Shown: positions 1-13,981 of the stretch, in pieces
Layout: every line of letters starts with the position of its first letter
How positions within the stretch are numbered: the stretch's first letter is position 1
Virus record (IMG/VR): IMGVR_UViG_2541047712_000007
DNA from: a virus
Lineage: Duplodnaviria > Heunggongvirae > Uroviricota > Caudoviricetes
DNA length: 16,704 nucleotides
Direction: 5' to 3' (one strand)
Translations under genes and position numbers: made by a program
The notes under the pieces: generated by a model
Told to the model about the DNA's origin: nothing
Databases searched by the model: none
What the model saw: the letters and a program-made list of their open reading frames with translations, nothing else

Positions 1-1461
1 ATGAAAAAATTACTGCGTCTTTTTTTCCCGCTCTCGCTGCGGGTACGTTTTCTGTTAGCAACGGCAGCAGTAGTATTGGTGCTTTCGCTTGCCTACGGAA
101 TGGTTGCGCTGATCGGTTATAGCGTCAGTTTCGATAAAACCACGTTTCGGCTGTTACGTGGCGAGAGCAATCTGTTCTATACCCTTGCGAAGTGGGAAAA
201 CAATAAGTTGCATGTCGAGTTACCCGAAAATATCGACAAGCAAAGCCCCACTATGACGCTAATTTATGATGAGAACGGGCAGCTTTTATGGGCGCAACGT
301 GACGTGCCCTGGCTGATGAAGATGATCCAGCCTGACTGGCTGAAATCGAATGGTTTTCATGAAATTGAAGCGGATGTTAACGATACCAGCCTCTTGCTGA
401 GTGGAGATCATTCGATACAGCAACAGTTGCAGGAAGTGCGGGAAGATGATGACGACGCGGAGATGACCCACTCGGTGGCGGTAAACGTCTACCCGGCAAC
501 ATCGCGGATGCCAAAGTTGACCATTGTGGTGGTGGATACCATTCCGGTGGAGCTAAAAAGTTCCTATATGGTCTGGAGCTGGTTTATCTATGTGCTCTCA
601 GCCAATCTGCTGTTAGTGATCCCGCTGCTGTGGGTCGCCGCCTGGTGGAGTTTACGCCCCATCGAAGCCCTGGCAAAAGAAGTCCGCGAACTGGAAGAAC
701 ATAACCGCGAATTGCTCAATCCAGCCACAACGCGAGAACTGACCAGTCTGGTACGAAACCTGAACCGATTGTTAAAAAGTGAACGCGAACGTTACGACAA
801 ATATCGTACGACGCTCACCGACCTGACCCATAGTCTGAAAACGCCACTGGCGGTGCTGCAAAGTACGCTGCGTTCTCTGCGTAGTGAGAAGATGAGCGTC
901 AGTGATGCTGAACCGGTAATGCTGGAGCAAATCAGCCGCATTTCACAGCAAATTGGCTACTACCTGCATCGTGCCAGTATGCGCGGCGGGACATTGCTCA
1001 GCCGCGAGCTGCATCCGGTCGCCCCACTGCTGGACAATCTCACCTCGGCGCTGAACAAAGTGTATCAACGCAAAGGGGTCAATATCTCTCTCGATATTTC
1101 GCCAGAGATCAGCTTTGTCGGTGAGCAAAACGATTTTGTCGAGGTGATGGGCAACGTGCTGGATAATGCCTGTAAATATTGCCTCGAGTTTGTCGAAATT
1201 TCTGCAAGGCAAACCGACGAGCATCTCTATATTGTGGTCGAGGATGATGGCCCCGGTATTCCATTAAGCAAGCGAGAGGTCATTTTCGACCGTGGTCAAC
1301 GGGTTGATACTTTACGCCCTGGGCAAGGTGTAGGGCTGGCGGTAGCCCGCGAAATCACCGAGCAATATGAGGGTAAAATCGTCGCCGGAGAGAGCATGCT
1401 GGGCGGTGCGCGGATGGAGGTGATTTTTGGTCGCCAGCATTCTGCGCCGAAAGATGAATAA
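1..1461 (+). CDS. phoQ: Sensor histidine kinase PhoQ (complete, 486 aa)
   Basis: Full-length ORF. Two hydrophobic segments flank a periplasmic domain with an acidic patch ([10 protein letters not shown]). H-box [13 protein letters not shown] and ATP-binding boxes ([25 protein letters not shown]) are present. The sequence matches E. coli PhoQ as I remember it. Confidence 0.97.
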
Positions 1462-1896
1462 ATATGTCCTTTTATCACCACAGCAAGGCAACCCATTGAT
1501 TTAATTAAACAACCCACACTGCAAAAAGTGCTAAAAACAGCAAATTGACTACACCATTAACTACACCGTTCGGTGCACTGTATGAAACAACGTGGAACAA
1601 ATAGACACAAGAAATATACAGGCGGGTAATCTTTCCAGGGGGAAGCGCACCAATTCATGAGGGGCGTTAATGTCGATATGGGGATCCCCATAACGGGGCT
1701 ACCGGATTTTTTTTCCGGTTAACTGTTAATCAGGCTGGTGGGTTTTACCTGTTCGGTAGGTGTTATGATTATCGTAATACCTTTCCCCCAGTGGGGTAAA
1801 AGCTCCAACCGTAACGATGTTCGTTGTGGTTGCCTTGATGGTCTGCGTGGTCATTATGACCATTCCCAAAAACAACATATTCGTTGTTTTTCTGTG

Positions 1897-2350
1897 CCCC
1901 GACCTCCTCAAATTGAGGAGGTCGAAAGTATCAACCAGTTACCGCGCCGACTTCCTCAAATTGAGGTTCCCGAAAATATCAGCGGGTTAACGATCAAACT
2001 GGCGAGTAATTAAACTGCGAAAATTTCGCATGTGAGGGATGTAGTCGGCGCAATTTTGCGCTTTGCTTTAATCTCAGTAAGTTACCGCGCCAACTTCCAC
2101 AGTCTGTGGAAATTGGGAAGAATCAACGGTTTAGGCCTTAATCATCTGCGTAATCATAAGTAATCATAATGTTCATTCAGCCACGCAATTTTGCGTTATC
2201 GGGAATATCAGCAAGTTACCGCGCCGGATTCCGCCAATGGCTGTTTCCGAAAGAATCAACGGGTTAGGCTGGTTTCCCCGATGTTCGCCGCTGGCGAATT
2301 TCGAAAATATCAACCAGTTACCGCCGCAACCGCTCCGGCTTCTTCCAGTG
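1897..2350. repeat. Degenerate direct-repeat array: four units of conserved box, 24-28 bp variable hairpin-prone segment, second conserved box
   Basis: Left boxes aaagtatcaaccagttaccgcgcc (1925-1948), tcagtaagttaccgcgcc (2075-2092), tatcagcaagttaccgcgcc (2206-2225), aaaatatcaaccagttaccgccgc (2303-2326). Right boxes aaaatatcagcgggttaacg (1973-1992), aagaatcaacggtttaggcc (2118-2137), aaagaatcaacgggttaggc (2250-2269). A perfect 9-bp-stem hairpin gacctcctcAAATTgaggaggtc sits at 1901-1923. Spacers carry near-palindromes gcgaaaatttcgc / gcgcaattttgcgc. Confidence 0.65.
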
Positions 2351-2599
2351 GTACGTTATTTTTTCTTTCTCCCGATGCAGTTCAACGCGGCGATTGTAGG
2401 CCAGCATTTCAAGAACGCGGATCCGTATGTTGCGCATATCAACATCATTAAGCTGGATACCATCACGGCACATCACCTCAGCAACAACACGCGCATAATT
2501 TTCGGCTGTCACGCTGTCCGGCTGCGTGGTCTGTTCGTCAGCCTGCTGGCTGATTCCAGATACGCGGCGGATTAATCCCAGTAGTTCGGCTTCTGTCAT
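2318..2599 (-). CDS. Hypothetical protein (93 aa), last gene of the packaging operon
   Basis: ATG at 2599 with a GAGG Shine-Dalgarno about 9 nt upstream, 13 nt after the TerL stop. Helix-rich translation. Its last 13 codons lie inside repeat unit 4. No family recognised. Confidence 0.5.
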   Translation of the reverse strand: MTEAELLGLIRRVSGISQQADEQTTQPDSVTAENYARVVAEVMCRDGIQLNDVDMRNIRIRVLEMLAYNRRVELHREKEKITYHWKKPERLRR

Positions 2600-2612
2600 G
2601 CTGCTGACCTCA

Positions 2613-4274
2613 TTACACCCCGCTGAATTCTTCCAGTTTCTGGCGGTGGCTGTCGCTTATATCAAAAGCAAAATCCTCATGCTCTGCCTGGAATGTACCA
2701 AACGCCATCAGTGCCGCCACGCTCGGGTCTATCTTGTTCGGTGATTTTTTCTTGTTCGGCTTGATATTGGCGTTCGCGTCACTCTGCATCACGACGTTAC
2801 TCATCGACCAGGACAACACCGGATCGCCACGATGCACAATCACCCTGCGGTTAACAAAAACTTCGAACGATTTCGCCGCCGGACTGAATCTGAGGTAGGT
2901 TTGCGGGAACGGCTCCACCTCAAAACCTGCCCCCTGTAATTGCGTTCTGAGATGCGTGGCGTTCCACGTATCAAAGCCCACCAGCCTGATATGAAATTTC
3001 TCCGCGTCCTGCATGATGTCATCTCTGATCCGGTCGTAATCAATGCAGTCGCCAGGCGTTGTGCGTATCCAGCCCGCTTTAGCCCACTGACGATAGACAG
3101 CGCGGTTTTTATTGGCGGGGTTCTGTAGCTGGAACTCCGGCAGATAATGACGGGAAATCAGCATAATGGTTTTACCGACCGGAAAGGCATAGCATACGCT
3201 GGAAATATCGCTGGTTGATGATAAATCCAGCCCCGCGTAACACTCCTGGCCGTGTAAATCTTCCTCCGTGAACGTTCCGGCACACTCAGCCCATGCGCCG
3301 TTACCCATCCACGGGGTAGCCCCCTGGCACCAGATATTAAATCGCTTTGTCATCATCTCCACCCACTGCGACGGTATTCCCCGCGCTTTCTGGATGGTTG
3401 AGGCCAGTTTTTCACGATCGACGGAAACATCGATATTGGGATTCGCCTTTATCCACATCGCCGGATCGTCAACCTCGCTTTCATCATCCAGCTCGTAAAT
3501 CAGCACGAACATGGATTCGTTCACCTCTTCACCATCCAGTATCTGGCAGCAATAGTCGTAGTGTTGTTTACAGGCTGAAACAACGTTGCTCCCCGATGTG
3601 GTGATGGCAAATAACAGCCCCTCCGGACGCGCCCCCATTCCCAGTTCAAGCGCGGAATAAACCCCGTTGTCAGGGTGCAGGTGATATTCATCCACAATGG
3701 CAAGACTCGGGTTTGTACCTTCAATGGTTGCCGCTTTTGCTGCCAGCGGCTTTAACAGGCTGTTGCTTTTCGGGTGTATCACCTTATGCGCCTGAATATT
3801 CACTCTCTTGCGTAACGGTCGGGATAAAAGGCACATCTGACGCGCATCATCAAAAACGATCCGCGCCTGGTCGCGGCTCACCGCTGCGGTGTAAATATCC
3901 TGCTGCCCGTTCTCCATAATCAAAAACCAGTTAGCCAGAATCGCGGCTGTCGTGGATTTCGCATTTTTGCGCGGCACTTCGATAAAGGCGCTCGTGTATT
4001 TGCGCCTTCCGGTGGCCTTAACCTTAAAGCCGAGGATGCACGCAAAGGCAAACTGCTGCCACGGTTCCAGCTCAATGGGTCTTCCACGCATCGGCCCTTT
4101 TACGTGCGGGCACACCCTGGAAAAGGCAATAAACCGCTCAACAACCTCACGATCGAACATGTAAAGGGGGTTTTCAAGGTCCGAAAAGTATCGTTCAACG
4201 GTCTGTTTCAGCCGTTTACAGGCCGGAATCTTGCCCGTTTTTACGTCTTCTGCGTACTTATTCCAGGCGGTCAA
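2613..4274 (-). CDS. terL: Terminase large subunit (553 aa)
   Basis: N-terminus TAWNKYAEDVKTGKIPACKRLKQTVERY is typical of TerL. Size, and position immediately after TerS with a 17-nt overlap, fit. The first codon at 4272-4274 is TTG (GAGGA upstream), so the exact start is uncertain. Confidence 0.92.
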   Translation of the reverse strand: MTAWNKYAEDVKTGKIPACKRLKQTVERYFSDLENPLYMFDREVVERFIAFSRVCPHVKGPMRGRPIELEPWQQFAFACILGFKVKATGRRKYTSAFIEVPRKNAKSTTAAILANWFLIMENGQQDIYTAAVSRDQARIVFDDARQMCLLSRPLRKRVNIQAHKVIHPKSNSLLKPLAAKAATIEGTNPSLAIVDEYHLHPDNGVYSALELGMGARPEGLLFAITTSGSNVVSACKQHYDYCCQILDGEEVNESMFVLIYELDDESEVDDPAMWIKANPNIDVSVDREKLASTIQKARGIPSQWVEMMTKRFNIWCQGATPWMGNGAWAECAGTFTEEDLHGQECYAGLDLSSTSDISSVCYAFPVGKTIMLISRHYLPEFQLQNPANKNRAVYRQWAKAGWIRTTPGDCIDYDRIRDDIMQDAEKFHIRLVGFDTWNATHLRTQLQGAGFEVEPFPQTYLRFSPAAKSFEVFVNRRVIVHRGDPVLSWSMSNVVMQSDANANIKPNKKKSPNKIDPSVAALMAFGTFQAEHEDFAFDISDSHRQKLEEFSGV

Positions 4275-4614
4275 GCTCGTCCTCTTCTTCTGTTTCCGGT
4301 GGATTTTTACGGCGGCTTATCGGGTCAAAACCGAGCAAAGAGGCCATTTTTATCATCACTCTTTCCGCGTCGGATTTCGCGCTTAATGCGGGGTTTCTGC
4401 TCTCTCCGCCCTGACTGTTAACAATGCTGAATCCGCGCGCCGCAAGGTCTGCGACGGCTTTCCGGTATATCGAGTAATTGACGCAATACAGTTCCAGATT
4501 ACTCCAGTCGGCAGGGGTCAGGTCTCCCCGTTCCGCAAGCTGCCGCGATTTTTCCCGCCACTGCTTCACGGCGATATCATCCAGGTAGGCGGGGACTTTC
4601 GGTGGTCTTGCCAT
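4258..4614 (-). CDS. terS: Terminase small subunit, P27-like family (118 aa)
   Basis: N-terminal MARPPKVPAYLD motif, size, acidic C-terminus, and position directly upstream of and overlapping TerL. Confidence 0.85.
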   Translation of the reverse strand: MARPPKVPAYLDDIAVKQWREKSRQLAERGDLTPADWSNLELYCVNYSIYRKAVADLAARGFSIVNSQGGESRNPALSAKSDAERVMIKMASLLGFDPISRRKNPPETEEEDELDRLE

Positions 4615-4903
4615 GCTTATTTTTTCGCCAGATTATTTTTCAAAAAATTACCGTGCATAAAAATTTGGGGAGGCGTTCGGTGCCCGGCGGGGTCGGGTTT
4701 GTCCTGAAAACGCCCCCCACCCCGTCATACAGCCTCATCAGCGATTGCGGAAACATTCCATAACCTCGCAGTCACGGTCGGTTAATCGCTTCGCTGTGAT
4801 GCGTTCTGCGCGTCCTGACGCTTTATCTTTATGCCCTGTTTCTTGTGTCTTCCATGCGTCACGCTGCCTTATAAGTCCACGGATAAGGCGGTTTTGTTCC
4901 CGC
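4615..4903. other. HNH-TerS intergenic region; candidate cos/packaging initiation site
   Basis: A 289-bp non-coding gap between the HNH and TerS genes, the position where HNH-associated cos phages keep cos. It contains an AT-rich tract with tttttcaaaaaa (4621-4660) followed by a GC-rich block ggggaggcgttcggtgcccggcggggtcgggtttgtcctgaaaacgccccccacccc (4667-4724) with an imperfect inverted repeat. Confidence 0.3.
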
Positions 4904-5344
4904 TCATTCATCAGCGTCATACATCCAGTTATTGCGGTTAGCGGCCCGTTCTTCCTCTTCACGAAATCCACCTGCGGCACGCTTGCTTTTTGTTGCCGGA
5001 TCAAGCCATTTCGTTTTCTGGTTATGGCACGCCTGGCACAATGGCTGATGGTTCCATTCGGGCCAGAAGAGAACATCATCACCGCCATTAATCGGGATAA
5101 TGTGATCCACCACCACGGCGGGCGTATATATCCCCTTCTCAAGGCATCGCACGCATAACGGGTTTTTACTCAGATACATGGCGCGGTATTTGTCCCACTG
5201 TCTGGAGTACCCACGCGCGCGGCGGTGTCCTCGTCTGGCATCCTCTGCACGCCATGCCGCCCGCCTGTGCTCCTCACACTTGCCGGACTTCACGCGCCTG
5301 TTACAGCCTGGTTCTGTGCATCGTCTTAATGGTTGCCACGGCAT
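4904..5344 (-). CDS. HNH endonuclease (146 aa)
   Basis: Cys-rich zinc-binding motifs (CTEPGCNRRVKSGKCEEH, CVRC, CQACHNQ) and the HNH core VVDHIIPINGGDD...NHQPLCQACHN. Confidence 0.9.
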   Translation of the reverse strand: MPWQPLRRCTEPGCNRRVKSGKCEEHRRAAWRAEDARRGHRRARGYSRQWDKYRAMYLSKNPLCVRCLEKGIYTPAVVVDHIIPINGGDDVLFWPEWNHQPLCQACHNQKTKWLDPATKSKRAAGGFREEEERAANRNNWMYDADE

Positions 5345-5640
5345 CAGTACACCCCCACATCACGGTAAGCCGTCCAGAGTGCACCAATCGTCATGGGTAC
5401 GCGTGTTTTTGCGTTATCCGCGACAATCTGGCGATTTTCATACAGGTGAGCGATAAACATCATGCAGCCAATCTTTATGGCTGGCGTGAACTCCAGCCCG
5501 TCATCAAAGCGCCTGCCTATGTGTATCTGGCACGCCTCAAGCGATGCGGCGATGTATCCGCTGATTAACTGGTCTTCCTCGTCGCCATCGATGCGGCAAT
5601 GGAGTTTCACTTCTTCCAGGGTGATAAGTTCTTCTGTCAT
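5344..5640 (-). CDS. gp6-like head-tail connector protein (98 aa)
   Basis: MTEELITLEEVKLHCRIDGDEEDQLISGYIAAS matches the N-terminal pattern of phage gp6-type connector proteins. Start overlaps the upstream stop (ATGA). Confidence 0.7.
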   Translation of the reverse strand: MTEELITLEEVKLHCRIDGDEEDQLISGYIAASLEACQIHIGRRFDDGLEFTPAIKIGCMMFIAHLYENRQIVADNAKTRVPMTIGALWTAYRDVGVY

Positions 5641-5975
5641 TTTTCCGCGCCCTCACGACAAAGAATTTCAAGGCGTGTCCTGGCGGCATCCGGCAGCGGC
5701 TGCCCGATGATATTCAGTACACGCCCCGCCAGCGGCCCCGTATTGACCTTTATCCGGCTGGTGGCGTTGATGTCCTTCCTGTAGCGTATCCATATCCTTA
5801 CCGTTCCAGTCGCCAGTTCTGCACCCGATGAAATGGCCTCCTTGCTGCTGATCATGTTCACGCTTGCCCAGAGTGTGTGACCGTCCTCCCACGTTTCGAG
5901 TATTTCGCCGGTTATATCCCTGGTCTGTTTCAGGGTCTGAATCGTTACCCTGTCACGCAGTCGCCCTATGTTCAT
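5637..5975 (-). CDS. Head-tail adaptor / head-closure protein (Phage_H_T_join-like), about 112 aa from the internal ATG
   Basis: RLRDRVTIQ...IRYRKDI...LEILCRE pattern. The ATG at 5975 overlaps the portal stop (ATGA) and has a GAGGGAG upstream. The ORF extends in frame to an ATG at 6017 that has no Shine-Dalgarno. Confidence 0.7.
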   Translation of the reverse strand: MNIGRLRDRVTIQTLKQTRDITGEILETWEDGHTLWASVNMISSKEAISSGAELATGTVRIWIRYRKDINATSRIKVNTGPLAGRVLNIIGQPLPDAARTRLEILCREGAEK

Positions 5976-7183
5976 TCCGGTTTTTCTCCCTCGCTGATTT
6001 TTACTTCCTGTTTCCATGCCTGGCTGAACTCATCACCACCATCACGCGGGGACAGCCCTTCACGTTCGCGGGCTTCGTTCGGGCACATAACGCCGGATTT
6101 GATGCCGCGTTCATAGGTGGCAAAGCGTTCGCCAGGAGTGGCCCGTAACAGGTCCGCGCTGTCAAACTCCACCTGATACCGGATACCAGGTACAGGTGAG
6201 GCCACCAGCAGGGCGTTTTTTATCTGCTGCTCAAAGTTCGCCAGCCACGGGCGCATCGTCATGGTGAGAAATGCGCGGCTTGCCTCGCTGAAATTGCTGT
6301 AGGTGCTGTTGCTGTATTCCTGCAAAAAAATCGGCGAGACGTTGAACATTCGGGCGATGTCTTCAATGGTGAAGCGACGGGAGGCCAGCCATTCAGCATC
6401 CTGATTACTCATGCCCAGCTGCTGATAGCTCATACCCCCTTCAAGGATGGGCGTTTTTCCGGCGTTTCTGGCCCCTTTGTAGCGTTCCAGTGCGGCTAAT
6501 GCCTGTTTGCCCTTCACGCCGTCCAGCCATTCGCCTGACGTGATAACCCCTGCCGCCATCATGCCATCACGCATCACGCTCGCGCCGTGGCGTTGTTGGG
6601 CCAGCCCAAGCCCCAGCGATTCGCGGCAGATGGTTACAGGTGAGCGCCCCATAAAACCGTCATCCGTGGAGTAACGAAGGTGGAGAACCTCCCACGGTAA
6701 ATAGTTGCGGGTGTTTCCGGTGTAGGCGTCAGTGATGCAGTAGCGCCAGTTATGCTCACCTGTCTGCTCAACGTTCACCGACTGCGGCGGGTAAGGATGC
6801 AAAGCGACTGGAAAACCATCACGCCCCCACTGAATCACCGCATAAGCATTACCGTTTAACAGGCAGTGGCGGATCATCATTCGCTTAAACTGGTAGGGGG
6901 TTTGCCATGCGTTCGGGCGCTCGTTGAGGATGTGATCGACCGGATGAGAATCAAGCCACTCTCGGGCCTCCTTCCCCTTCTCATTGCGTACCAGGTACAG
7001 GTAACACGGCATGGTAGCCACCGCCTCAGAGATGACCGTGACGGCGTTCATGACGGCGGGCAGTGATTCCGCTGTCCCCGATGATACGTACTCACCCGCC
7101 CCCGTGTTCGATGTGCCAGCCAGCGCCATAAACTCATCAAGCGTCATGCTGCGCTGCTCTTTTTTTCTTCTGAAAGGCCACAT
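5972..7183 (-). CDS. Portal protein, HK97 family (403 aa)
   Basis: Size and the motif RRFTIEDIARMFNVSPIFL characteristic of HK97-type portals. ATG at 7183 with a G-rich Shine-Dalgarno. Confidence 0.93.
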   Translation of the reverse strand: MWPFRRKKEQRSMTLDEFMALAGTSNTGAGEYVSSGTAESLPAVMNAVTVISEAVATMPCYLYLVRNEKGKEAREWLDSHPVDHILNERPNAWQTPYQFKRMMIRHCLLNGNAYAVIQWGRDGFPVALHPYPPQSVNVEQTGEHNWRYCITDAYTGNTRNYLPWEVLHLRYSTDDGFMGRSPVTICRESLGLGLAQQRHGASVMRDGMMAAGVITSGEWLDGVKGKQALAALERYKGARNAGKTPILEGGMSYQQLGMSNQDAEWLASRRFTIEDIARMFNVSPIFLQEYSNSTYSNFSEASRAFLTMTMRPWLANFEQQIKNALLVASPVPGIRYQVEFDSADLLRATPGERFATYERGIKSGVMCPNEAREREGLSPRDGGDEFSQAWKQEVKISEGEKPE

Positions 7184-7184
7184 A

Positions 7185-7757
7185 TCACACCCCCGCTAAA
7201 TCCGCCCACCAGCGGCGATTATCCGCACGCGGCATTTTTTCGGGGTGCTGCTCGTACAGGGAGCGGCGGGCCAGCTCCACGCCGGAATCAGGGTAAGCCG
7301 GTACGGATGTAACGGTAATTTCGTATAGTTCCGCCACCAGCACGGTGCGCACGCATGGATCTGTTGTGGTATCCCATACATCCTTACGGGAACGAAAGCC
7401 AAAGCTCATGCCGGATATATCACCTCGTTTAACCAGTTCGATAACGTCGCGCCCTGTACTGGTATCCGGTGGGGTCAGTTCAAAGCGTAACCCTGTTTCG
7501 TCCTCTTCCAGTTTCAGCGTGCCGGAACGGGTGCGCCCCAGTAACATGCTGTGGTCATGCTCATACAGGCCGCGAACGTCATTACCCGCCGCAAGCCACT
7601 CAGTAAACGCCCCCCGCTGGAATTTTTCGTAAAACTCCCCCCATAGCAGTTCTGAAAGCTTATCCCAGCGAACAACGTAGCCCGTCAGCGTACCGGCTCC
7701 GCTGGTAGTGATTTCCGATGACCGGATTTCCATACTCTTCATAATTTTTTCACCCAT
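7185..7757 (-). CDS. Prohead maturation protease, HK97 family (about 180-190 aa)
   Basis: GYVVRWDK...LYEHD...LGRTRSGTLKLEEDETGL matches the HK97 prohead protease family. The start could be the ATG at 7757, 7742 or 7733. Confidence 0.88.
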   Translation of the reverse strand: MGEKIMKSMEIRSSEITTSGAGTLTGYVVRWDKLSELLWGEFYEKFQRGAFTEWLAAGNDVRGLYEHDHSMLLGRTRSGTLKLEEDETGLRFELTPPDTSTGRDVIELVKRGDISGMSFGFRSRKDVWDTTTDPCVRTVLVAELYEITVTSVPAYPDSGVELARRSLYEQHPEKMPRADNRRWWADLAGV

Positions 7758-7786
7758 AAAACACTAAAGGGGCTTTTAAGCCCCTT
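7757..7786 (-). terminator. Intrinsic terminator or attenuator between the capsid and protease genes
   Basis: Minus-strand hairpin aaggggcttaaaagcccctt (8-bp stem, 7767-7774 pairing with 7779-7786) followed by a U-rich run (uaguguuuua). Confidence 0.5.
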
Positions 7787-7796
7787 CTGTATGCTG

Positions 7797-8954
7797 TTAA
7801 TCGTCGTCCTGTGGCAGTTCCAGAATCTTGATCGCGTTCGAATCCACCACGCCACCGCCTAAATATTTCTGCGTGAAAATTTTGATGAAGCCCGGCTCTG
7901 TGAGGTTGTCCGGTCTGGTGCGAACACCTGTTTCGTGATCAACAATGTAGTAACCGCGTTTGAAGTCACCCAGGGCAATAACGTTATCAGGCATAAACTC
8001 CAGATATTCGACCGGAAGGCCCAGCAACGTATCAGGATCACCCGCCTGTAAACGGTCGCGCCAGATGTAATCACCGTTCGCGTTCTTCACCTTCTGAAGT
8101 TTTGCCGCCGTCGTGGAGTTAACCACCCAGACCGCGTTTTTGCGGTATTTTTTACGTAATGCAAATTTCAGGTCGATCAGCGGGTCCGCAGATGTCCACG
8201 CCAGAGATTCGGAAGGTTTAATTACCTGCAACGTACCAAAATCACGCTCTTTGTCGTTCTTCTCTGCACGGGGTACGGATAAAAAACCTTTTGCTTTTTT
8301 GTCACCGTCGCCCACAACCAGATCGCTTTCTTCGGTTTCCGTGAAGGTGTCGCCAATCTCACCCGTCAGCCATGAAAGGATGTCCACATCGGAAAAATCC
8401 ACGATTTCCTGTGTGGTGCGCGGGTACGCATAGACCGGATACAGCTTAATGCTCACCTCGTTAATCTGCGGGGTGCTGGTCTGTTCGCGTGTCTTACCCT
8501 CTTCACCGTGGTTAACGGTCGCACCGCCAGCGGAAACAAGCTGCTTAAACTCGTTGCTGCTGATTTTCTTCACGGTACAGATGCGGCGCATGGTGGATTC
8601 ATCCGTCAGCATTCGCATGATTTCGGTGTTCAGTTCGGGGATAACGGTATAACCACCATCAGCGGGAACGCCTGTACTTAATGCGCGGGTTTCACCTGTC
8701 AGAATGTAGTTGCGTAGTTCTGCGGGGTCAGTGGTCTGGCTGCTTTTACCTGGCTTGCTGCGCTCTTCGTCTGCAATGGCTTCAAGGCGGGAAATGTCTT
8801 TATCGAGGGATTCAGCTTTAGCGCGTAATTCGTCAAATTTTGCGCCCTCAGCATCGTTAAGACTGCGGTTTTCTTTTTCCGCGTTCTCCAGCATGTCGCG
8901 CATCTGATTTTTAATGGCGGTTTTCTGCTGGCGTAATTCGATTATTCTCGGCAT
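7797..8954 (-). CDS. Major capsid protein, HK97 fold, with N-terminal coiled-coil delta/scaffold-like domain (385 aa from the ATG at 8954)
   Basis: HK97-family capsid-like C-terminal two thirds. The N-terminal roughly 90 aa are charged and heptad-like, and no separate scaffold gene exists. ATG at 8954 with AGGA upstream; the ORF track extends to a GTG at 9002. Confidence 0.92.
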   Translation of the reverse strand: MPRIIELRQQKTAIKNQMRDMLENAEKENRSLNDAEGAKFDELRAKAESLDKDISRLEAIADEERSKPGKSSQTTDPAELRNYILTGETRALSTGVPADGGYTVIPELNTEIMRMLTDESTMRRICTVKKISSNEFKQLVSAGGATVNHGEEGKTREQTSTPQINEVSIKLYPVYAYPRTTQEIVDFSDVDILSWLTGEIGDTFTETEESDLVVGDGDKKAKGFLSVPRAEKNDKERDFGTLQVIKPSESLAWTSADPLIDLKFALRKKYRKNAVWVVNSTTAAKLQKVKNANGDYIWRDRLQAGDPDTLLGLPVEYLEFMPDNVIALGDFKRGYYIVDHETGVRTRPDNLTEPGFIKIFTQKYLGGGVVDSNAIKILELPQDDD

Positions 8955-9210
8955 AAAAAAAGTCCTGGGGTTAAGTAAGGAACTCCAGGACGCGGCAAAC
9001 ACTCAACCGTTTTTCATAAGGAAATCAGTAATCGCACCGATCGTTTTCCCGCCTGGTAATGAATATTGGCGAGCACATTAACAGGCGGGAAAATGGCCCC
9101 AGCGTCCTGGCACCACGGGCGAGAATAATCATGATTCAGGTCGGGTAAAATATGCCGTTCCGGTCAGCGAGCAACGTGGAACAACCACGAACAAATAATT
9201 TACAAAACAT

Positions 9211-9234
9211 GACAAAAAGCCGGATTGCTCCGGC
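9211..9234 (-). terminator. Rho-independent terminator ending the early/replication operon
   Basis: Minus-strand hairpin gccgga-GCAA-tccggc (GNRA loop; 9219-9234) followed by uuuuugucauguuuug, immediately after the stop at 9242. Confidence 0.7.
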
Positions 9235-9241
9235 TGTGTGA

Positions 9242-9514
9242 TTATCTGTCCTGGTAATTTCGCCATATTTCATCGCTTACACCATCTATACCCATTTCAG
9301 CATAAGTGCGATCTACTGCCTTTCTCAGGTCTCCGAAGTTATCCGGCGGCTCCGGTGGCTTCTGTGCCTTCCTGGAACATTCCAGCCGTCGCATCGTAAC
9401 CTGATGCCGTTCCTTGTCTGTCTCCACCAGCAGCATGACTTCACCCCATCGCGCCGACGCCCTCCGGTAAAAGCCTTTCGCCTCGAGTTCTTCCGCTATG
9501 CGGTCATGTACCAT
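9242..9514 (-). CDS. Hypothetical protein (about 91 aa)
   Basis: ORF downstream of ssb. The ATG at 9514 has a GAGGGG Shine-Dalgarno 6 nt upstream; the track ORF extends to 9634 but would overlap ssb. No family recognised. Confidence 0.5.
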   Translation of the reverse strand: MVHDRIAEELEAKGFYRRASARWGEVMLLVETDKERHQVTMRRLECSRKAQKPPEPPDNFGDLRKAVDRTYAEMGIDGVSDEIWRNYQDR

Positions 9515-9524
9515 CGCCACCCCC

Positions 9525-9935
9525 TCAGAACGGAATACCGTCACCGTAAGGGTCATCGCCTCCCGCTGGTGGCTGATTACCCTGTGTGCCTGTGGTTTTG
9601 CGTCTGTTCCCGCCAGGACGTGCCGCACGGGCACTGATTACGCTGTCTGCAATAACCTGATAACCCTGCCGCGTTTCCCCGTTCTGTCCCGTCCACTGGC
9701 TGACCTGCATCGTGCCGGATACGCTGGCAACGTCGCCTTTTTGATGTTTAGCCAGGAAGTCGGCCTGCTTACCAAATGCGATGACCGATAGCCATAACGT
9801 CGCCTGCCCATCCTGCGCCTGACTACATGGCAACGATACCGCCATACGCGCCAGCGTCATCGGTGTGCCCTTACTGGTCTGTTTTACCTGCGGGTCGTCC
9901 ACCAGCCGCCCGTAAGCCGCTATCTGTGCTGTCAT
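9525..9935 (-). CDS. ssb: Single-stranded DNA-binding protein (136 aa)
   Basis: OB-fold-like N-terminal region (AAYGRLVDDPQV...LWLSVIAFGKQADFL), Gly/Gln/Pro-rich linker, and the C-terminal acidic tail ...DDPYGDGIPF resembling the SSB DDDIPF tip. ATG overlaps the upstream stop; GGAGAGGTGG Shine-Dalgarno. Confidence 0.85.
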   Translation of the reverse strand: MTAQIAAYGRLVDDPQVKQTSKGTPMTLARMAVSLPCSQAQDGQATLWLSVIAFGKQADFLAKHQKGDVASVSGTMQVSQWTGQNGETRQGYQVIADSVISARAARPGGNRRKTTGTQGNQPPAGGDDPYGDGIPF

Positions 9936-10210
9936 GATTCCACCTCTCCGGTTTTAACGTTGATGGTTGTTACCTGTTCCGCTTCGGCAATCTCCCGTTC
10001 TGTCAGCGTGGCAAAGTTTGCCGCCGCCGTGGTCATGAATGCGCTTATCAGTTCGGGATGTGCTTTCGCGTATCCTTCCCCCGCGTGGCGGTCTATCGTT
10101 CTGATTGCCACCTTTAAAGCGTGCTCTGTCATGTCTAACGCGCGATATTTCGGTTCTGTTCTGTCTCTGCGTTTTTTGAGTGATTTATTAAATTTCCCTG
10201 AAGTGTGCAT
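9932..10210 (-). CDS. Hypothetical protein (92 aa), first gene after the origin
   Basis: ATG at 10210 with a GAGGGGG upstream; translationally coupled to ssb. No family recognised. Confidence 0.5.
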   Translation of the reverse strand: MHTSGKFNKSLKKRRDRTEPKYRALDMTEHALKVAIRTIDRHAGEGYAKAHPELISAFMTTAAANFATLTEREIAEAEQVTTINVKTGEVES

Positions 10211-10254
10211 ATTTATTTTTACCCCCTCGTTTAAAAAGTTTTGAGTTGTGCCTC

Positions 10255-10490
10255 CCCTTGTCTACCTTATCTACCTTACTGGCTCTCATGCCAGTAATGG
10301 CGCGGCTTTCAGCGGGGTAGAGTGCTTTTATCCACTATCTACCCCGTGTCTACCTCCCTGTCTGATTCAGGTAAAATCAGGTAGAGAGGGTAGATAGTGG
10401 GTAGACAGTAAAAAAAGGCTATCTACCTAACTTAATGCACTGAATTAAATGTATTTTTCTTTACTCAGGTAGACAGGGTAGACAGCAATT
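10255..10490. repeat. Iteron-type replication origin
   Basis: At least 11 copies of the 7-mer GGTAGA(C/G/T) in both orientations (for example tgtctaccttatctacc 10259-10275, ggtagagagggtagatagtgggtagacag 10380-10408, caggtagacagggtagacag 10466-10485), interspersed with A/T tracts, directly 3' of the primase gene. Confidence 0.75.
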
Positions 10491-10498
10491 ACAAAAAA

Positions 10499-12253
10499 TT
10501 ATAAAAACGCGTCGCACTCGTCTGTTGTTATTGCGTTAGTCTGCGTTACTCCCTTAACTTTCCGCGTAATATATTCATGTCCGTAAACTTTCGCGGCTGG
10601 CTTCATAGCCTTGCCAAAGTCATTTACGTTTAGCGGTTTGCTCCTGCCTGCGTACGCCATAAACGCCAGATAGACGCGGTAAAGACTGTTTCTGGTCGTG
10701 TACTTCACTGAATCGCCACCGCCGCCCATCATCAGGCCGCGTGCTTCCTCCAGAAAATTCAGGAACTGGCAAAACTCAATAACCGGATCCGTCTGTTGCT
10801 TTATTGCCAGAGCTTCATCACCGTCACGCTGTTCCAGTAGTAAAGCCCTCGCCTTCTCAGGGTCGGTAAAGTTCGCCAGCAATCGGCGGATAATGACAGG
10901 GATTTCAGCCGCGATCTTTTCCGGTAGCTCCCTGTCTTTTTCGGCCTCACTGACGATATTGTCGAAACGGAAAATCACGCGACGACGTGCCACACCTCCG
11001 GCCCGTTCGGTGAATATCATCGGGTTATTGTTGGTCGCCAGCACCACCGCCCTGATTACAGCCGTGAAACGCTTTTCGTATTTCGGGTTAATTTCCACGG
11101 GGTCACCGCCCGTGATTTTCTTGATGCCCGTTCCTTCGCCTGTATATTTCGGCTGGTCAGCCAGGACGATAAGACGACTCCCGACAACCTGCGCACGTCC
11201 ACCAGCATCATCAAGCGATGTCATTTCAGCGCTTACCGTGTTCTGTTTCCCTGCCAGAAGGCTGGCTATGTGTGTGAATGTACTTTTACCGCTCCCGCCG
11301 TCTCCGGTGGCCTCAATAAACATCTGCCAGTCGTACCGGTTCGCCATAATCATGTACAGCGCGGCACATATACGCATCATCTTGCGCGGGTCTTTTCCGG
11401 CTGCGTGCTCAAGCCATTTATGAAAGTTTGGCGCGTTATCGCGGATGTTCTCCCCTGGTGCTGGTGGCGTGTACTCAATGCCGTTGTGCGTGGTGATCCA
11501 GTTCTCCGGCGTGTGCGGGGAAAATTCCCCCGTTTTCAGGTCAAGCGCACCATTGGCGAACGGCAGCAAATCGCCGGACGGCTCGCCCATTGGTTCGGCA
11601 ATAACTTTTAACGCTTCCACGGCGTTATTGATTACGCGCTTGCTGAAAGTGGCCCTGTGCTCTGAATAGATCGCCACCATTTCGCGGCTAAGTTCCATTG
11701 TGCTGACCGGACACCATACCCCGCCGCGCCATACGTGAACGATTTCACTTTCAGGATGTACGCAAACGCCATCAAAGCGATCGGCAAGCAGCTGCGCGCG
11801 CTCACTGTCCGCCATCTGCGAAAGTTGCGCCTTTTGCTTTACCGGAAGCTCAATGACCAGACCATCAGAAAGATTCTGGCGCTCACGGGCCAGATATTCG
11901 CGCCAGTTCTCCACCTTCTGACCGTGCATACCCTCAGGATAAAAATTTGCATCCTGTACGCCTGCCGCCGCCAGCTTCTGGCCAATCGCCTTTATCATTA
12001 CTGGCGCAAGATATCCGGCCCTGAATATGCGCACGGATTTTCTGCCTTCCGGCACAATTTGCAGCTTATCCAGTTCTGATAACTGCTGCTCCCCAAGCCA
12101 CACAGGAGGCTCATTATCTCCGGCCATACGCGCATCATGTTCCTGCCATTGTTTCGCGTGTGCCCAGGCATCACTACCCGCAAAAATAATGACTTCTGTT
12201 CCTTTGTGTTTTATGCCGCGTGACTGCTGTTTTACGTTCGGTGCCAGTTTCAT
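10499..12253 (-). CDS. P4-family primase / SF3-type helicase replication protein (584 aa)
   Basis: Walker A motif TGDGGSGKSTF in the C-terminal half, size, and the position upstream of the iteron origin. ATG overlaps the upstream stop (ATGA). Confidence 0.9.
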   Translation of the reverse strand: MKLAPNVKQQSRGIKHKGTEVIIFAGSDAWAHAKQWQEHDARMAGDNEPPVWLGEQQLSELDKLQIVPEGRKSVRIFRAGYLAPVMIKAIGQKLAAAGVQDANFYPEGMHGQKVENWREYLARERQNLSDGLVIELPVKQKAQLSQMADSERAQLLADRFDGVCVHPESEIVHVWRGGVWCPVSTMELSREMVAIYSEHRATFSKRVINNAVEALKVIAEPMGEPSGDLLPFANGALDLKTGEFSPHTPENWITTHNGIEYTPPAPGENIRDNAPNFHKWLEHAAGKDPRKMMRICAALYMIMANRYDWQMFIEATGDGGSGKSTFTHIASLLAGKQNTVSAEMTSLDDAGGRAQVVGSRLIVLADQPKYTGEGTGIKKITGGDPVEINPKYEKRFTAVIRAVVLATNNNPMIFTERAGGVARRRVIFRFDNIVSEAEKDRELPEKIAAEIPVIIRRLLANFTDPEKARALLLEQRDGDEALAIKQQTDPVIEFCQFLNFLEEARGLMMGGGGDSVKYTTRNSLYRVYLAFMAYAGRSKPLNVNDFGKAMKPAAKVYGHEYITRKVKGVTQTNAITTDECDAFL

Positions 12254-12549
12254 TTTTTACCCCTGAATCCTTTAATCATGGTTTTCATCTTCTGAATATT
12301 GGCGCGTGCTTTCTCCCTGCTGGTGGGCACGTTACGCGGTACGGCCTGCACAAGAGAAAAATCACGGTCGAACTGATAAACAGGCATCACGCAATCATAT
12401 TCGTAGCCTTCACGACGGTAGGTTACGCGCCGTTCCTCCACGCCCTTAATCATTACCGTGCCGCCGTACTTATCGCGGTAAATATCACCGCGCATGAATT
12501 TAGTGCGAGTTTTGCCACTGGCAGTTAAGCCAGAATATTTAAGTTTCAT
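12250..12549 (-). CDS. Hypothetical protein (99 aa), basic
   Basis: ATG at 12549 with GGAGAA upstream; translationally coupled to the primase. No family recognised. Confidence 0.6.
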   Translation of the reverse strand: MKLKYSGLTASGKTRTKFMRGDIYRDKYGGTVMIKGVEERRVTYRREGYEYDCVMPVYQFDRDFSLVQAVPRNVPTSREKARANIQKMKTMIKGFRGKK

Positions 12550-12554
12550 TATTT

Positions 12555-12788
12555 TTATTCTCCGGTGTGGGGCGCTTTATACTGGTCGTGTAATGTCTCT
12601 ATTTCCTGCAACTCATTTATTACAGGCTCAAGAAGCGTTATTAATGCCGTGACAATCCTTGATTTCTGTTTATCACGTTCATTATCTCCAAGCGTTTCAA
12701 GACATATGCGCAATATTTCCAACATATTTTCACTGTGAGAAAGTGCAAGAAATGCGCGGTCTATTGTTTCGTGGTAAATATCACGCAT
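12555..12788 (-). CDS. Hypothetical protein (77 aa)
   Basis: ATG at 12788 with GGGGA Shine-Dalgarno; tightly packed in the operon. Confidence 0.55.
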   Translation of the reverse strand: MRDIYHETIDRAFLALSHSENMLEILRICLETLGDNERDKQKSRIVTALITLLEPVINELQEIETLHDQYKAPHTGE

Positions 12789-12789
12789 A

Positions 12790-13782: not shown

Positions 13783-13878
13783 AGCTACCTCGATACTTTC
13801 GCTATCGTTGGTGGTTAGAAGCCCGGTTAGTGTTAGCGCACTGCCGGGTTTCGTCGTTTCTGCACCTTGCGCCAACAA

Positions 13879-13931: not shown

Positions 13932-13981
13932 TTATTTTTTTTCCTGCATACTGCATTTGTTTTTTATGAGGGGTACACCAC

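What the first reader, a model, noticed from the sequence alone, without database searches (positions are those of the whole stretch)
1897..2350. Structured repeat array with conserved boxes flanking variable hairpin segments, between the island packaging genes and phoQ
Four units each place a conserved box (consensus about aRtatcaRcMagttaccgcgcc) before a 24-28 bp variable segment and a related second box (aaRaatcaRcgggttaRg). The variable segments differ but share a frame (RRMTTCC, internal mini-palindrome, TTYCCG); the first is a perfect hairpin, duplicated in degenerate form as the variable segment of unit 1. Spacers carry further palindromes (gcgaaaatttcgc, gcgcaattttgcgc) and three taatcat repeats. 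Possible explanations are stacked att-site remnants from serial integrations, a binding-site array, or a structured non-coding RNA locus.
Basis: seen in the sequence. Interest (0 to 1): 0.7.

Follow-up and report, generated by a model that had tools for sequence, protein, structure and literature searches.

The report
IHF-site and hairpin array in satellite
The repeat tract is real: it is a run of seven consensus binding sites for the host DNA-bending protein IHF, each preceded at a fixed distance by a short hairpin-forming palindrome, and it sits at the end of a phage-satellite island in about a quarter of complete E. coli genomes; no paper in the library searched describes it, and its function is untested.

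Summary
Window 1897-2322 holds seven co-oriented boxes (W of the IHF core at 1929, 1977, 2072, 2121, 2206, 2254, 2308) and seven perfect short palindromes.

The window is E. coli phoQ followed by a capsid-forming phage-inducible chromosomal island (cf-PICI). The array is island DNA. It lies about 430 bp inside the att core (about 1462-1472) and directly downstream of the last late gene, a 93-aa ORF.

The box is the IHF consensus WATCARNNNNTTR. Six of the seven boxes match it exactly, against about 0.03 expected in the tract. Its invariant columns are the positions the consensus specifies.

In 78% of 46 distinct units from 20 satellite versions, a palindrome is centred 16.5-18 bp upstream of the box. 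The stems differ between units through compensatory changes.

The 93-aa gene plus array travels with different packaging modules and at least four integration sites. Box number ranges from 1 to 7.

The array is not the att site, cos/cosB or the ori, and it matches no Rfam family.

Best reading: a satellite-borne array resembling E. coli BIME-1/RIB repeats (IHF site plus REP-like hairpins). It probably folds into an IHF nucleoprotein boundary between the late operon and attP-int. That function is inferred, not shown.

The parts
1462..1472 (.). att core (attR junction), AAATATGTCC, directly after the phoQ stop codon. This is the island boundary.
   Evidence: alignment of the window with the K-12 phoQ-roxA junction and the int-side junction of L001.
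1489..1501 (-). IHF consensus site of the attP arm (AATCAATGGGTTG), between the core and the arm-type repeats.
   Evidence: The NNNN positions vary among satellite versions.
1544..1567 (+). Doubled arm-type motif ATTGACTACACC/ATTAACTACACC, also present just upstream of int in L001.
   Evidence: (D12). Compare the doubled attP motif of helper-embedded PICIs in PMC10111431.
1900..1924 (+). Hairpin P0, a perfect 12-bp-arm palindrome CGACCTCCTCAAATTGAGGAGGTCG. Its centre is 17 bp upstream of box A1.
   Evidence: (I5).
1927..1947 (+). Box A1. IHF core TATCAACCAGTTA at 1929-1941.
1954..1966 (+). Hairpin P1, CCTCAAATTGAGG. It is the degenerate copy of P0 (whole segment 1948-1971).
   Evidence: (I1).
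1975..1991 (+). Box B1. IHF core TATCAGCGGGTTA at 1977-1989.
2016..2030 (+). Spacer palindrome TGCGAAAATTTCGCA, with no intact box after it. The O157 version has the compensated form CTACGAAAATTTCGTAG.
2048..2061 (+). Hairpin GCGCAATTTTGCGC, a member of the NNN-CAATTTTG-NNN family. Its centre is 17.5 bp upstream of box A2.
2070..2090 (+). Box A2. Core TCTCAGTAAGTTA at 2072-2084, with one mismatch to the IHF consensus.
2095..2111 (+). Hairpin TTCCACAGTCTGTGGAA (8-bp arms). Its centre is 18 bp upstream of box B2.
   Evidence: (I9).
2118..2136 (+). Box B2. IHF core AATCAACGGTTTA at 2121-2133.
2139..2167 (+). Three TAATCAT copies (2139, 2151, 2161). Other versions have the palindrome TAATCATAATGATTA here.
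   Evidence: (D15).
2183..2196 (+). Hairpin ACGCAATTTTGCGT. Its centre is 16.5 bp upstream of box A3.
2204..2225 (+). Box A3. IHF core TATCAGCAAGTTA at 2206-2218.
2233..2241 (+). Short or imperfect hairpin GCCAATGGC. Its centre is 17 bp upstream of box B3.
2251..2269 (+). Box B3. IHF core AATCAACGGGTTA at 2254-2266.
2284..2298 (+). Hairpin TTCGCCGCTGGCGAA. Its centre is 17 bp upstream of box A4.
2306..2322 (+). Terminal box A4. IHF core TATCAACCAGTTA at 2308-2320. Its TTA is the reverse complement of the stop codon of the 93-aa gene.
   Evidence: This unit sits at offset -13 from the stop codon in 18 of the 20 versions (absent at that offset in L039 and L007).
2318..2599 (-). 93-aa gene (phrog_1561, function unknown). 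It is the last gene of the late operon and travels with the array.

Best explanation
The tract is a cis-acting, non-coding module of an E. coli phage satellite. It carries seven co-oriented consensus binding sites for the host integration host factor (IHF). They are spaced 48-95 bp apart, and paired A and B boxes are 48-49 bp apart. Each is preceded, 16.5-18 bp upstream of the core, by a short palindrome that can form a hairpin.

Proposed mechanism:
1. IHF occupies the boxes and bends the DNA sharply at each one. This folds about 430 bp into a compact nucleoprotein tract at the boundary between the late (capsid/packaging) operon and attP-int.
2. The palindromes form hairpins in the untranslated 3' end of the late transcript, or in transiently single-stranded DNA.
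3. Together they act like an E. coli BIME-1/RIB element placed at an operon end. They would protect the 3' end of the late mRNA. They would also stop transcription and supercoiling from spreading into attP and int in the excised circle, where terL, the 93-aa gene, the array, attP, int and alpA are all co-directional. In the integrated island, the protected neighbour would be phoQ.

What is shown: the sequence anatomy, the match to the IHF consensus, the fixed hairpin-to-box geometry with covarying stems, the restriction to satellites, the variable unit number, and the exclusion of att, cos and ori roles.

What is inferred: actual IHF binding, which strand or molecule forms the hairpins, and the boundary function.
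For: Box identity:
- Six of seven boxes match WATCARNNNNTTR exactly, and four match the stricter WATCAANNNNTTR. In the whole window there are 10 and 7 matches against 1.09 and 0.62 expected.
- Two of the other matches lie near the attachment region: 1489-1501 in the attP arm and 15357 in the int-alpA spacer.
- In 25 distinct units the invariant columns are ATCA, the first T of TT, and the final A. G44 and T46 are more than 90% conserved. The NNNN positions vary.
- The attP IHF site AATCAATGGGTTG is almost identical to the array boxes.

Host factor rather than island protein:
- In Xenorhabdus cf-PICIs the flanks are unrelated and the 93-aa gene is absent. IHF-consensus boxes nevertheless sit 1 nt after the stop codon of the last late gene (TerL). 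Further boxes lie downstream in both orientations, paired boxes are 48 bp apart, and the hairpin is centred 17-18 bp upstream.
- In Proteus cf-PICIs, IHF-consensus boxes lie 192 and 355 nt downstream of TerL.
- Exact-consensus density is 0.56 per kb downstream of TerL against 0.11 per kb in coding DNA.

Hairpins:
- 78% of 46 distinct units, chosen only by box plus spacer, have a palindrome with arms of at least 5 bp centred at -18 to -16.5. The figure is 0% at five control offsets and 0.8% after shuffling.
- Five of six stem pairs show changes on both sides, giving 29 compensatory cells against 9.3 in shuffles. Slid-partner controls are 27-49% paired against 96%.

Position and portability:
- In 18 of the 20 E. 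coli versions the array starts at the stop codon of the last late gene.
- It occurs with cf-PICI and lambda-cos PICI packaging modules and at least four att sites.
- It is absent from 50,697 phage records and from the island-free K-12 locus.

Precedent: BIME-1 linkers carry an IHF site between REP hairpins. REPs are reported to act as terminators, mRNA stabilisers and topological insulators (PMC3333891).
Against: - No binding, transcript or phenotype data exist, and nothing was found in the library searched.
- The usual A/T-rich element 5' of IHF cores is not obvious here.
- Conservation extends beyond the IHF core (YCGRAAR upstream, GGC or CCGCGCC downstream). IHF alone does not explain that.
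- Six-bp arms are short for cruciform extrusion in duplex DNA.
- On neither strand do the hairpins carry convincing U-tracts: 3 terminator-like sites against 1.7 expected.
- G.T wobbles favour the plus strand, which is antisense to the late operon, by only 4 events to 1. This is weak evidence, and it points away from late-mRNA hairpins.
- Eight enterobacterial cf-PICIs from other genera (including Klebsiella, Kosakonia and Citrobacter) have other genes and no such array after TerL. The module is therefore not essential to the satellite life cycle.
- Compensatory change in DNA palindromes can arise by template-switch correction without selection.
Confidence: 0.45

Rival explanations
1. The array is an extended accessory arm of attP. 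The IHF array folds the long arm so that Int and AlpA assemble or control the integrative or excisive complex. It would work like accessory sequences of other site-specific recombination sites.
For: - The array lies on the arm of attP that is distal to int, and the true attP uses an almost identical IHF site.
- Position next to att is its most consistent positional feature across satellite types.
- attP function classically depends on IHF and supercoiling (established knowledge of lambda attP).
Against: - The attP core, IHF site and doubled arm motif already lie within about 150 bp of the core.
- Spacing from core to array is not fixed: about 5, 453, 465 and 609 bp at the same phoQ site.
- Box number varies from 1 to 7.
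- The array is unchanged across integrases with different att sites.
- Real arm sites are positioned to within +/-2 bp (PMC10111431).
Confidence: 0.15
2. The array is a structured RNA locus. It would be transcribed, either as the 3' UTR of the late operon or as an antisense RNA. Each hairpin plus conserved flank would be an RNA-level unit, such as a processing site, a stabiliser or a small-RNA array, and the resemblance to IHF sites would be incidental.
For: - The stems covary with compensatory changes.
- Both strands fold better than shuffles (z = -2.5 plus strand, -3.9 minus strand).
- The tract follows directly after a stop codon in the direction of transcription.
- On the minus-strand RNA each hairpin is preceded by an AU-rich single-stranded stretch (UUGAUAUUUUCG). 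This is the kind of context RNase E prefers (inference).
Against: - There is no Rfam match, even at E <= 5.
- Promoter-like sites number 0 against 2.0 expected.
- The positions conserved in the box are exactly those of a DNA-binding consensus.
- In Xenorhabdus the boxes occur in both orientations. This fits a duplex-DNA motif and not a strand-specific RNA motif.
Confidence: 0.15
3. The boxes are bound by a satellite-encoded protein, for example the adjacent 93-aa product or AlpA, rather than by IHF.
For: - Conservation extends beyond the IHF core.
- In E. coli the 93-aa gene always accompanies the array, and its stop codon lies inside the terminal box.
- The protein has a conserved basic C-terminus, WKKPERLRR.
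Against: - The 93-aa protein has no Pfam, PDB-sequence or fold match to DNA-binding proteins. The model has pLDDT 72 and three helices, and no Foldseek hit reached E < 0.9.
- Xenorhabdus and Proteus elements lack the gene but keep IHF-consensus boxes after TerL, abutting its stop codon in Xenorhabdus.
- A different repeat (GAAACAAC/GGAACAA, near both att arms and downstream of int at 15390-15450) is the more plausible AlpA or Int target.
Confidence: 0.1
4. The array is functionless repeat DNA. It would be a satellite-specific BIME- or MITE-like repeat that expands and contracts by recombination and is tolerated at the gene-poor end of the island.
For: - Unit number and order are mosaic and vary from 1 to 7.
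- Eight cf-PICIs from other enterobacterial genera lack it.
- One island (L016) has lost everything between the att core and a box.
- Palindromes can be perfected by template switching (established knowledge of quasipalindrome mutagenesis).
Against: - Units within one array are only 63-83% identical, yet they keep the consensus core, the spacer and the hairpin position.
- The terminal unit is present, abutting the stop codon, in 18 of the 20 versions.
- An analogous arrangement recurs in Xenorhabdus with unrelated sequence.
Confidence: 0.1
5. The array is a packaging site (cosB or pac) or a second replication site like the P4 crr.
For: - It lies next to terminase genes.
- Lambda cosB contains an IHF site (PMC9026076).
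- P4 needs a repeat region distant from its ori (recalled knowledge, not tested here).
Against: - In the lambda-cos PICI of O157 (L003), a lambda-like cosN (GGGCGGCGACCT) and three R-like repeats (TCAGATCCKWTCT) lie on the other side of the 93-aa gene.
- The same array serves satellites with unrelated terminases.
- The ori iterons GGTAGAYAG cluster only at 10258-10485, downstream of the primase gene, and none lies in the array.
Confidence: 0.04

Closest known systems
E. coli BIME-1 / RIB-RIP elements (IHF site in the L linker between two REP hairpins)
   Same: Both are extragenic composites of hairpin-forming palindromes and a consensus IHF site, placed at the 3' end of a transcription unit. 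Stem bases differ between copies but stay complementary. Copy number varies between loci and strains (PMC3333891).
   Different: - There is no conserved GTAG at the hairpin foot (present in 1 of 7 units).
- Stems are 6-12 bp perfect palindromes, not 30-40-nt imperfect ones.
- The boxes that orient the units are all direct, instead of REP/iREP inverted pairs.
- There is one hairpin per IHF site at a fixed 17-bp offset.
- The array is restricted to satellites, with 1-6 places per genome, not hundreds of dispersed copies.
- There is no sequence similarity to REPs.
IHF sites of lambda-type attP (H1, H2, H') and cosB (I1)
   Same: The same host-factor consensus is used. The island's own attP has such a site at 1489-1501.
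   Different: Those are single sites at fixed distances from recombinase or terminase sites. Here there are seven sites, with variable number and variable distance to att, and no Int- or TerS-type repeats between them.
Plasmid centromere-like arrays (F sopC: 43-bp tandem repeats, each with an inverted repeat). This comparison is recalled, not tested.
   Same: Both are tandem units of about 45-50 bp, each containing a short inverted repeat.
   Different: sopC inverted repeats are identical because one protein reads them. Here the palindromes differ and only the adjacent box is constant. The island has no partition genes.
REP325 / naRNA4 cluster (PMC4550694, abstract seen)
   Same: Both are clusters of repeats, each with cruciform-capable palindromes separated by linkers. 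Both are linked to a nucleoid protein of the HU/IHF family.
   Different: REP325 is built from canonical REPs and acts through an RNA with HU. No transcript is known here.
CRISPR arrays
   Same: Both show a regular alternation of constant and variable segments, and both involve IHF (at the leader in type I-E).
   Different: Here the constant part is 13-21 bp and non-palindromic. The variable part is a short palindrome, not a unique spacer. The period is 48 bp, and there are no cas genes.

Membership tests
IHF binding site | Match to the core consensus WATCARNNNNTTR | tested here: met
   Six of seven boxes match exactly and one has a single mismatch. About 0.03 matches are expected in the tract. 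The invariant columns coincide with the specified consensus positions.
IHF binding site | A/T-rich element upstream of the core | tested here: inconclusive
   GAAAA/GAAAG lies directly 5' of the core, and the AT-rich palindrome centre lies at -15 to -19. Neither sits where the A-tract of lambda H' sits (sequence inspection; the H' comparison is from memory).
IHF binding site | Physical binding and bending by IHF | not testable with these tools
   This needs EMSA, footprinting or ChIP.
REP/BIME (PMC3333891) | Imperfect palindrome of 30-40 nt with conserved GTAG 5' of the foot | tested here: not met
   The palindromes are 9-25 nt and mostly perfect. GTAG precedes only the 2048 hairpin.
REP/BIME (PMC3333891) | REP and iREP in inverse orientation separated by a linker | tested here: not met
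   All boxes, which define unit orientation, are in the same orientation in all 20 E. coli versions. The Xenorhabdus analogues do have inverted boxes.
REP/BIME (PMC3333891) | Linker carrying an IHF site (BIME-1) | tested here: met
   A consensus IHF core lies between successive hairpins.
REP/BIME (PMC3333891) | Hundreds of copies dispersed in intergenic regions of the host chromosome | tested here: not met
   Matches occur in 1449 of 5426 genomes, with a median of 1 and a maximum of 6 places per genome. In the loci examined, all lie in satellite elements next to the 93-aa gene. The K-12 locus lacks it.
att site / stacked att remnants | Sequence identity with the attL/attR/attB core | tested here: not met
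   The core AAATATGTCC is at about 1462-1472, and no unit contains it.
att site / stacked att remnants | Fixed spacing of arm elements to the core | tested here: not met
   The first box lies about 5, 453, 465 or 609 bp from the core in four islands at the phoQ site.
cos / cosB | Adjacency to cosN and repeats read by terminase small subunit | tested here: not met
   In L003, cosN and the R-like repeats lie beyond the 93-aa gene. The array is shared by satellites with different terminases.
Replication origin / iteron region | Iterons recognised by the element's initiator | tested here: not met
   GGTAGAYAG iterons occur only at 10258-10485.
Described RNA families (Rfam 15) | Covariance-model match | tested here: not met
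   There is no match at gathering score. The only match at E <= 5 is a chance microRNA hit.
Intrinsic terminators | GC-rich hairpin followed by a T-run | tested here: not met
   Three weak candidates were found against 1.7 expected. Most hairpins are followed by YCGRAA.
CRISPR array | Near-identical repeats of 23-50 bp separated by unique spacers | tested here: not met
   The constant segment is 13-21 bp at 60-83% identity. The variable segments are related palindromes.

The most novel reading that the evidence does not exclude
The hairpin-plus-IHF unit may be a previously unrecognised class of cis-acting element specific to phage satellites, with a dedicated job that host BIMEs do not have. 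One possibility is a multi-roadblock stop for terminator-resistant transcription of the single long alpA-to-late operon. This would prevent that transcription from circling through attP into int on the excised molecule. Another possibility is a unit that is read in single-stranded form (hairpin plus adjacent conserved strand) during satellite replication or transfer. The recurrence of the same geometry in Escherichia and Xenorhabdus cf-PICIs with unrelated sequence would then reflect convergent or deeply conserved function.
Probability: 0.15. Interest if true: 0.7.

Novelty: new variant of a known kind. Interest (0 to 1): 0.5.

Why it matters
PICIs and cf-PICIs are being studied intensively as gene-transfer agents. 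Their known cis-acting sites are att, ori and cos. This tract would be a fourth conserved cis-element. Together with the 93-aa gene it is present in about 27% of complete E. coli genomes, including O157:H7 and Nissle 1917.

It points to a direct dependence on the host factor IHF. That dependence is easy to test by deleting the array, using ihfA/ihfB hosts, and running IHF ChIP.

It may also offer a compact natural system for asking what composites of an IHF site and a hairpin (BIME-1/RIB), whose function is still debated, do at operon ends.

If the tract turns out to be inert repeat DNA, it is still a useful marker for the att-proximal end of this satellite lineage.

Tried and rejected
- tRNA scan and Rfam at gathering and permissive thresholds: nothing.
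- Promoter and terminator scan of 1400-2700: no excess.
- The 93-aa protein: no Pfam family; PHROG of unknown function only; no PDB sequence match; AF2 model with pLDDT 72 and no fold match. Its family is narrow, with 38 representatives at 50% identity.
- First genome-contig scan, using the 93-aa protein: no confirmed relatives.
- blastn of the array against 50,697 phage records: no match.
- Origin hypothesis: rejected, because the iterons lie elsewhere.
- cosB hypothesis: rejected using the O157 PICI, which has its own cosN and R-like repeats.
- Coding hypothesis: rejected. Unit spacings are not consistently multiples of three, and no ORF spans the array.
- Integron attC, Xer/dif, IS200/IS605 ends, Fur, ArgR, CRP and Fis boxes, and lambda nut sites: considered by eye against recalled consensus sequences. 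None fits. These are leads, not tests.
- An attempt to obtain an annotated K-12 BIME-1 for direct comparison failed. The RefSeq record shown listed no repeat features, and no REP-flanked IHF site lay in the 50 kb fetched.
- The covariance model of the E. coli unit found only marginal hits in other genera: Proteus E = 0.03, Xenorhabdus E = 0.65. The cross-genus similarity is therefore architectural, not sequence homology.
- Strand assignment from G.T versus A.C mismatches: 4 events against 1, too few to decide.
Full report
**Context**

The window begins with phoQ (1-1461, plus strand). The rest is a mobile element whose genes all lie on the minus strand. The order is:
- integrase (16704-15475)
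- a primase-type replication gene (12253-10499)
- major capsid (9002-7797)
- prohead protease (7757-7185)
- portal (7183-5972)
- head completion and connector proteins
- HNH endonuclease (5344-4904)
- P27-family small terminase (4614-4258)
- large terminase (4274-2613)
- a 93-aa ORF (2599-2318)

I compared the window with the island-free K-12 phoQ-roxA junction and with the int-side junction of an E. coli chromosome (L001) that is identical to window 1462-2620. This places the att core (AAATATGTCC) at about 1462-1472, directly after the phoQ stop codon. The whole 850-bp non-coding stretch 1473-2317, including the reported tract, is therefore island DNA. K-12 has only a 75-bp spacer at this position.

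The repeat finder recovers the boxes and the palindromes at the stated positions.
- Seven perfect palindromes (arm >=6, loop <=5) lie in 1897-2330. Dinucleotide shuffles give 0.69 +/- 0.86, with none of 1000 reaching seven. No other part of the window is as dense.
- A covariance model built from units of related elements scores five units in the window at E between 4e-15 and 3e-7. All are on the plus strand and inside the tract. Nothing else in the window scores below E = 0.4.

The array ends at 2322.

**What the box is**

The conserved core of every box is the binding consensus of integration host factor, WATCARNNNNTTR.
- Six of the seven boxes match exactly: 1929, 1977, 2121, 2206, 2254 and 2308.
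- The seventh (2072, TCTCAGTAAGTTA) has one mismatch.
- The window has ten exact matches against 1.09 expected. Six fall in 2.6% of the sequence.
- With the stricter WATCAANNNNTTR there are seven matches against 0.62 expected, four of them in the array.
- Two of the remaining matches lie near the attachment region. One is at 1489-1501, between the att core and a doubled arm-type motif (ATTGACTACACC ATTAACTACACC, 1544-1567) that recurs just upstream of int. The other is in the int-alpA spacer.
- The attP site reads AATCAATGGGTTG, almost the sequence of the array boxes.
- In an ungapped alignment of 25 distinct units from related elements, the invariant columns are ATCA, the first T of TT, and the final A. 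The four N positions vary.

**The hairpins**

I collected 20 distinct versions of the tract from E. coli chromosomes and IMG/VR contigs. From these I extracted 46 distinct units, defined only by the box and its short spacer.
- In 78% of units a palindrome with arms of at least 5 bp is centred 16.5-18 bp upstream of the first base of the core.
- The figure is 0% at five control offsets and 0.8% after shuffling the upstream sequence.
- The stems differ between units. Examples are CCTCAAATTGAGG, CCTCAATTTGAGG, CCCCCAATGGGGG, CCTGCATTGCAGG, CAGCCGTTGGCTG, TTCGCCGCTGGCGAA and TTCCACAGTCTGTGGAA. Another set is the NNN-CAATTTTG-NNN series, with GCG/CGC, ACG/CGT, GCT/AGC and GTG/CAC.
- On the 25-unit alignment, five of six stem pairs show changes on both sides. 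This gives 29 compensatory cells against 9.3 in shuffles. Sliding the partners drops pairing from 96% to 27-49%. Those 25 units were preselected for at least 4 of 6 pairs, so the percentage paired is biased. The unbiased figure is the 78% above.
- G.T wobbles favour the plus strand by four independent events to one, which is too few to decide.
- Both strands fold better than shuffles (z = -2.5 and -3.9).

**Distribution**

Some part of 1462-2620 is found in 1449 of 5426 complete E. coli genomes, and the full version in 111.

The 93-aa gene and the array travel together at the att-proximal end of different satellite types:
- cf-PICIs with HNH, TerS and TerL (the window; MS8320)
- PICIs with capsid and decoration genes plus a terS-like gene; two of them show a lambda-like cos next to the 93-aa gene (O157:H7 CP-933C; Nissle 1917, by gene spacing), and two others have the same gene set
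- a satellite embedded in a prophage terminase gene

They also occur at at least four integration sites.

Box number ranges from 1 to 7, and the order of units is mosaic. In 18 of the 20 versions the last unit abuts the stop codon: the TTA of the core is the reverse complement of TAA. The tract has no match in 50,697 phage records.

Among TerL relatives from 80 other species, eight enterobacterial cf-PICIs from other genera carry other genes after TerL and no such array.

In Xenorhabdus cf-PICIs the 93-aa gene is absent and the surrounding sequence is unrelated.
- IHF-consensus boxes again sit one base after the stop codon of the last late gene.
- Further boxes lie downstream in both orientations, and paired boxes are 48 bp apart.
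- A hairpin is centred 17-18 bp from the box.

In Proteus cf-PICIs, IHF-consensus boxes lie 192 and 355 nt downstream of TerL.

The recurrence of a host-factor consensus where everything else has diverged, and its appearance in both orientations, argue for a duplex-DNA motif read by a conserved host protein. They argue against an RNA motif and against a site for the 93-aa protein.

**What it is not**

- Not the att site or stacked att remnants. The core is elsewhere, and the units do not contain it. The distance from core to first box is about 5, 453, 465 or 609 bp in four islands at the same site.
- Not cos or cosB. In the O157 PICI, a lambda-like cosN (GGGCGGCGACCT) with three R-like repeats lies on the far side of the 93-aa gene. 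The array also serves satellites with unrelated terminases.
- Not the origin. The iterons GGTAGAYAG cluster only at 10258-10485, just downstream of the primase gene.
- Not a known RNA family, not a tRNA, and not enriched in promoter- or terminator-like signals.
- Not coding. No ORF spans it, and unit spacings are not multiples of three.
- The 93-aa protein gives no functional lead.

**Mechanism**

What the sequence supports is a cluster of IHF sites interleaved with short hairpins. It begins at the end of the last late gene and lies between that operon and attP-int.

In the excised circle, terL, the 93-aa gene, the array, attP, int and alpA are all co-directional. Anything reading out of the late operon would therefore run into attP and int. 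In the integrated state it would run antisense into phoQ.

The closest described objects are E. coli BIME-1/RIB elements. These have an IHF site in the linker between two REP hairpins. REPs have been credited with termination, mRNA stabilisation and topological insulation (PMC3333891).

I therefore propose that IHF folds the tract into a compact nucleoprotein boundary, and that the hairpins cap the late transcript. This step is inference. I give the whole statement 0.45. Within it, the claim that this is an IHF-site array is much firmer (about 0.8) than the boundary function (about 0.35).

The main rivals are:
- an accessory arm of attP
- an RNA-level element
- binding by a satellite protein
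- inert repeat DNA

Three caveats apply.
- Conservation extends beyond the IHF core.
- The hairpins lack U-tracts.
- Palindromes can be perfected by template switching without selection.

**Comparison and novelty**

The tract works like a BIME-1 but fails its membership tests. It has no GTAG foot and no 30-40-nt imperfect palindrome. The E. coli version has no REP/iREP inversion. It is not dispersed across the genome.

Papers on PICIs, cf-PICIs, helper-embedded PICIs and PICI cos sites in the searched library do not mention it. I rate it a new variant of a known kind. It is moderately interesting because it is widespread, cleanly defined and directly testable.

Noticed in passing
window 1734-15820 (15 sites, e.g. 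1734+, 2978-, 5757+, 7206-, 9565+, 11199-, 13663+, 15813-): The recombination hotspot Chi (GCTGGTGG) occurs 15 times in the island and not once in phoQ. Shuffles give 0.61, and the E. coli average is roughly one per 4.5 kb. In most of the 20 satellite versions, at least one Chi in the plus orientation lies in the non-coding tract between att and the array. This suggests protection of linear or rolling-circle satellite DNA from RecBCD.
   Followed up: partly
window 10258-10485: This is the likely replication origin. Ten copies of the iteron GGTAGAYAG lie in both orientations, flanking an A/T-rich centre, just downstream of the primase gene.
   Followed up: partly
window 1462-1610 and 15390-15450; L001 31290-31480: attP anatomy: core TTGATAAAA-TATGTCC-TTTTATCA (inverted 8-mers around a 7-bp overlap, reconstructed from both junctions), an IHF site at 1489-1501, and a doubled arm motif ATTRACTACACC x2 on both arms. 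GAAACAAC/GGAACAA-type repeats lie near both arms and downstream of int. They may be AlpA or Int sites.
   Followed up: partly
window 4615-4740: This is the probable cos region of the cf-PICI. GC-rich dyads (GGGAGGCGTT/AACGCCCCCC, CGGGGTCGGG/CCCCACCCCG) are flanked by A/T-rich sequence, between the 60-aa ORF after hnh and terS.
   Followed up: no
L016 (IMG/VR contig 2872693482_000001), unit at -166 from the 93-aa stop codon: In this island the phoQ end and att core (…AAATATGTCC) are fused directly to GAAAG-AATCAACGGGTTA of an array unit. The whole attP arm has been deleted, so the element is probably immobilised.
   Followed up: no
L018-L032, L043, L057, L059, L078, L081, L083-L085, L089, L091 (IMG/VR contigs): An unrelated viral repeat shares the ATCAACGAGTTA core. 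Two copies lie back to back and form a palindrome of about 26 bp (GTAAsTCnTTGAnwATCAACGAGTTAC). This recurs every 55-60 bp across a GC-rich spacer. Its nature is unknown.
   Followed up: no
L106, L107, L126, L136, L145, L151 (Xenorhabdus kozodoii) and other Xenorhabdus loci: Single Xenorhabdus genomes carry many cf-PICI-type TerL loci: six in X. kozodoii, and three or four each in X. innexi, X. miraniensis, X. khoisanae, X. mauleonii and X. yunnanensis. There the IHF boxes form long imperfect inverted repeats around a central hairpin.
   Followed up: partly
L003 3440-3640 (O157:H7 CP-933C / OI-51): A lambda-like cosN (GGGCGGCGACCT) is followed by three repeats TCAGATCCKWTCT arranged like R3, R2 and R1. 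This could be the PICI-specific cosB that earlier papers could not define.
   Followed up: no
window 2329-2349, 2617-2637 versus 1941-1961, 2218-2238: The last about 20 coding bases of the 93-aa gene and of terL resemble the sequence that follows A-type boxes inside the array (ACCGCNCCGRNTTC…, 76% identity). The units may have arisen by duplication of a gene-end segment.
   Followed up: no
window 1817-1990 (+): A small plus-strand ORF begins with a hydrophobic stretch, MFVVVALMVCVVIMTI. That stretch is conserved in the O157 island, and the sequence diverges once the ORF enters the array. There is no clear ribosome-binding site, so it is probably not a gene.
   Followed up: no
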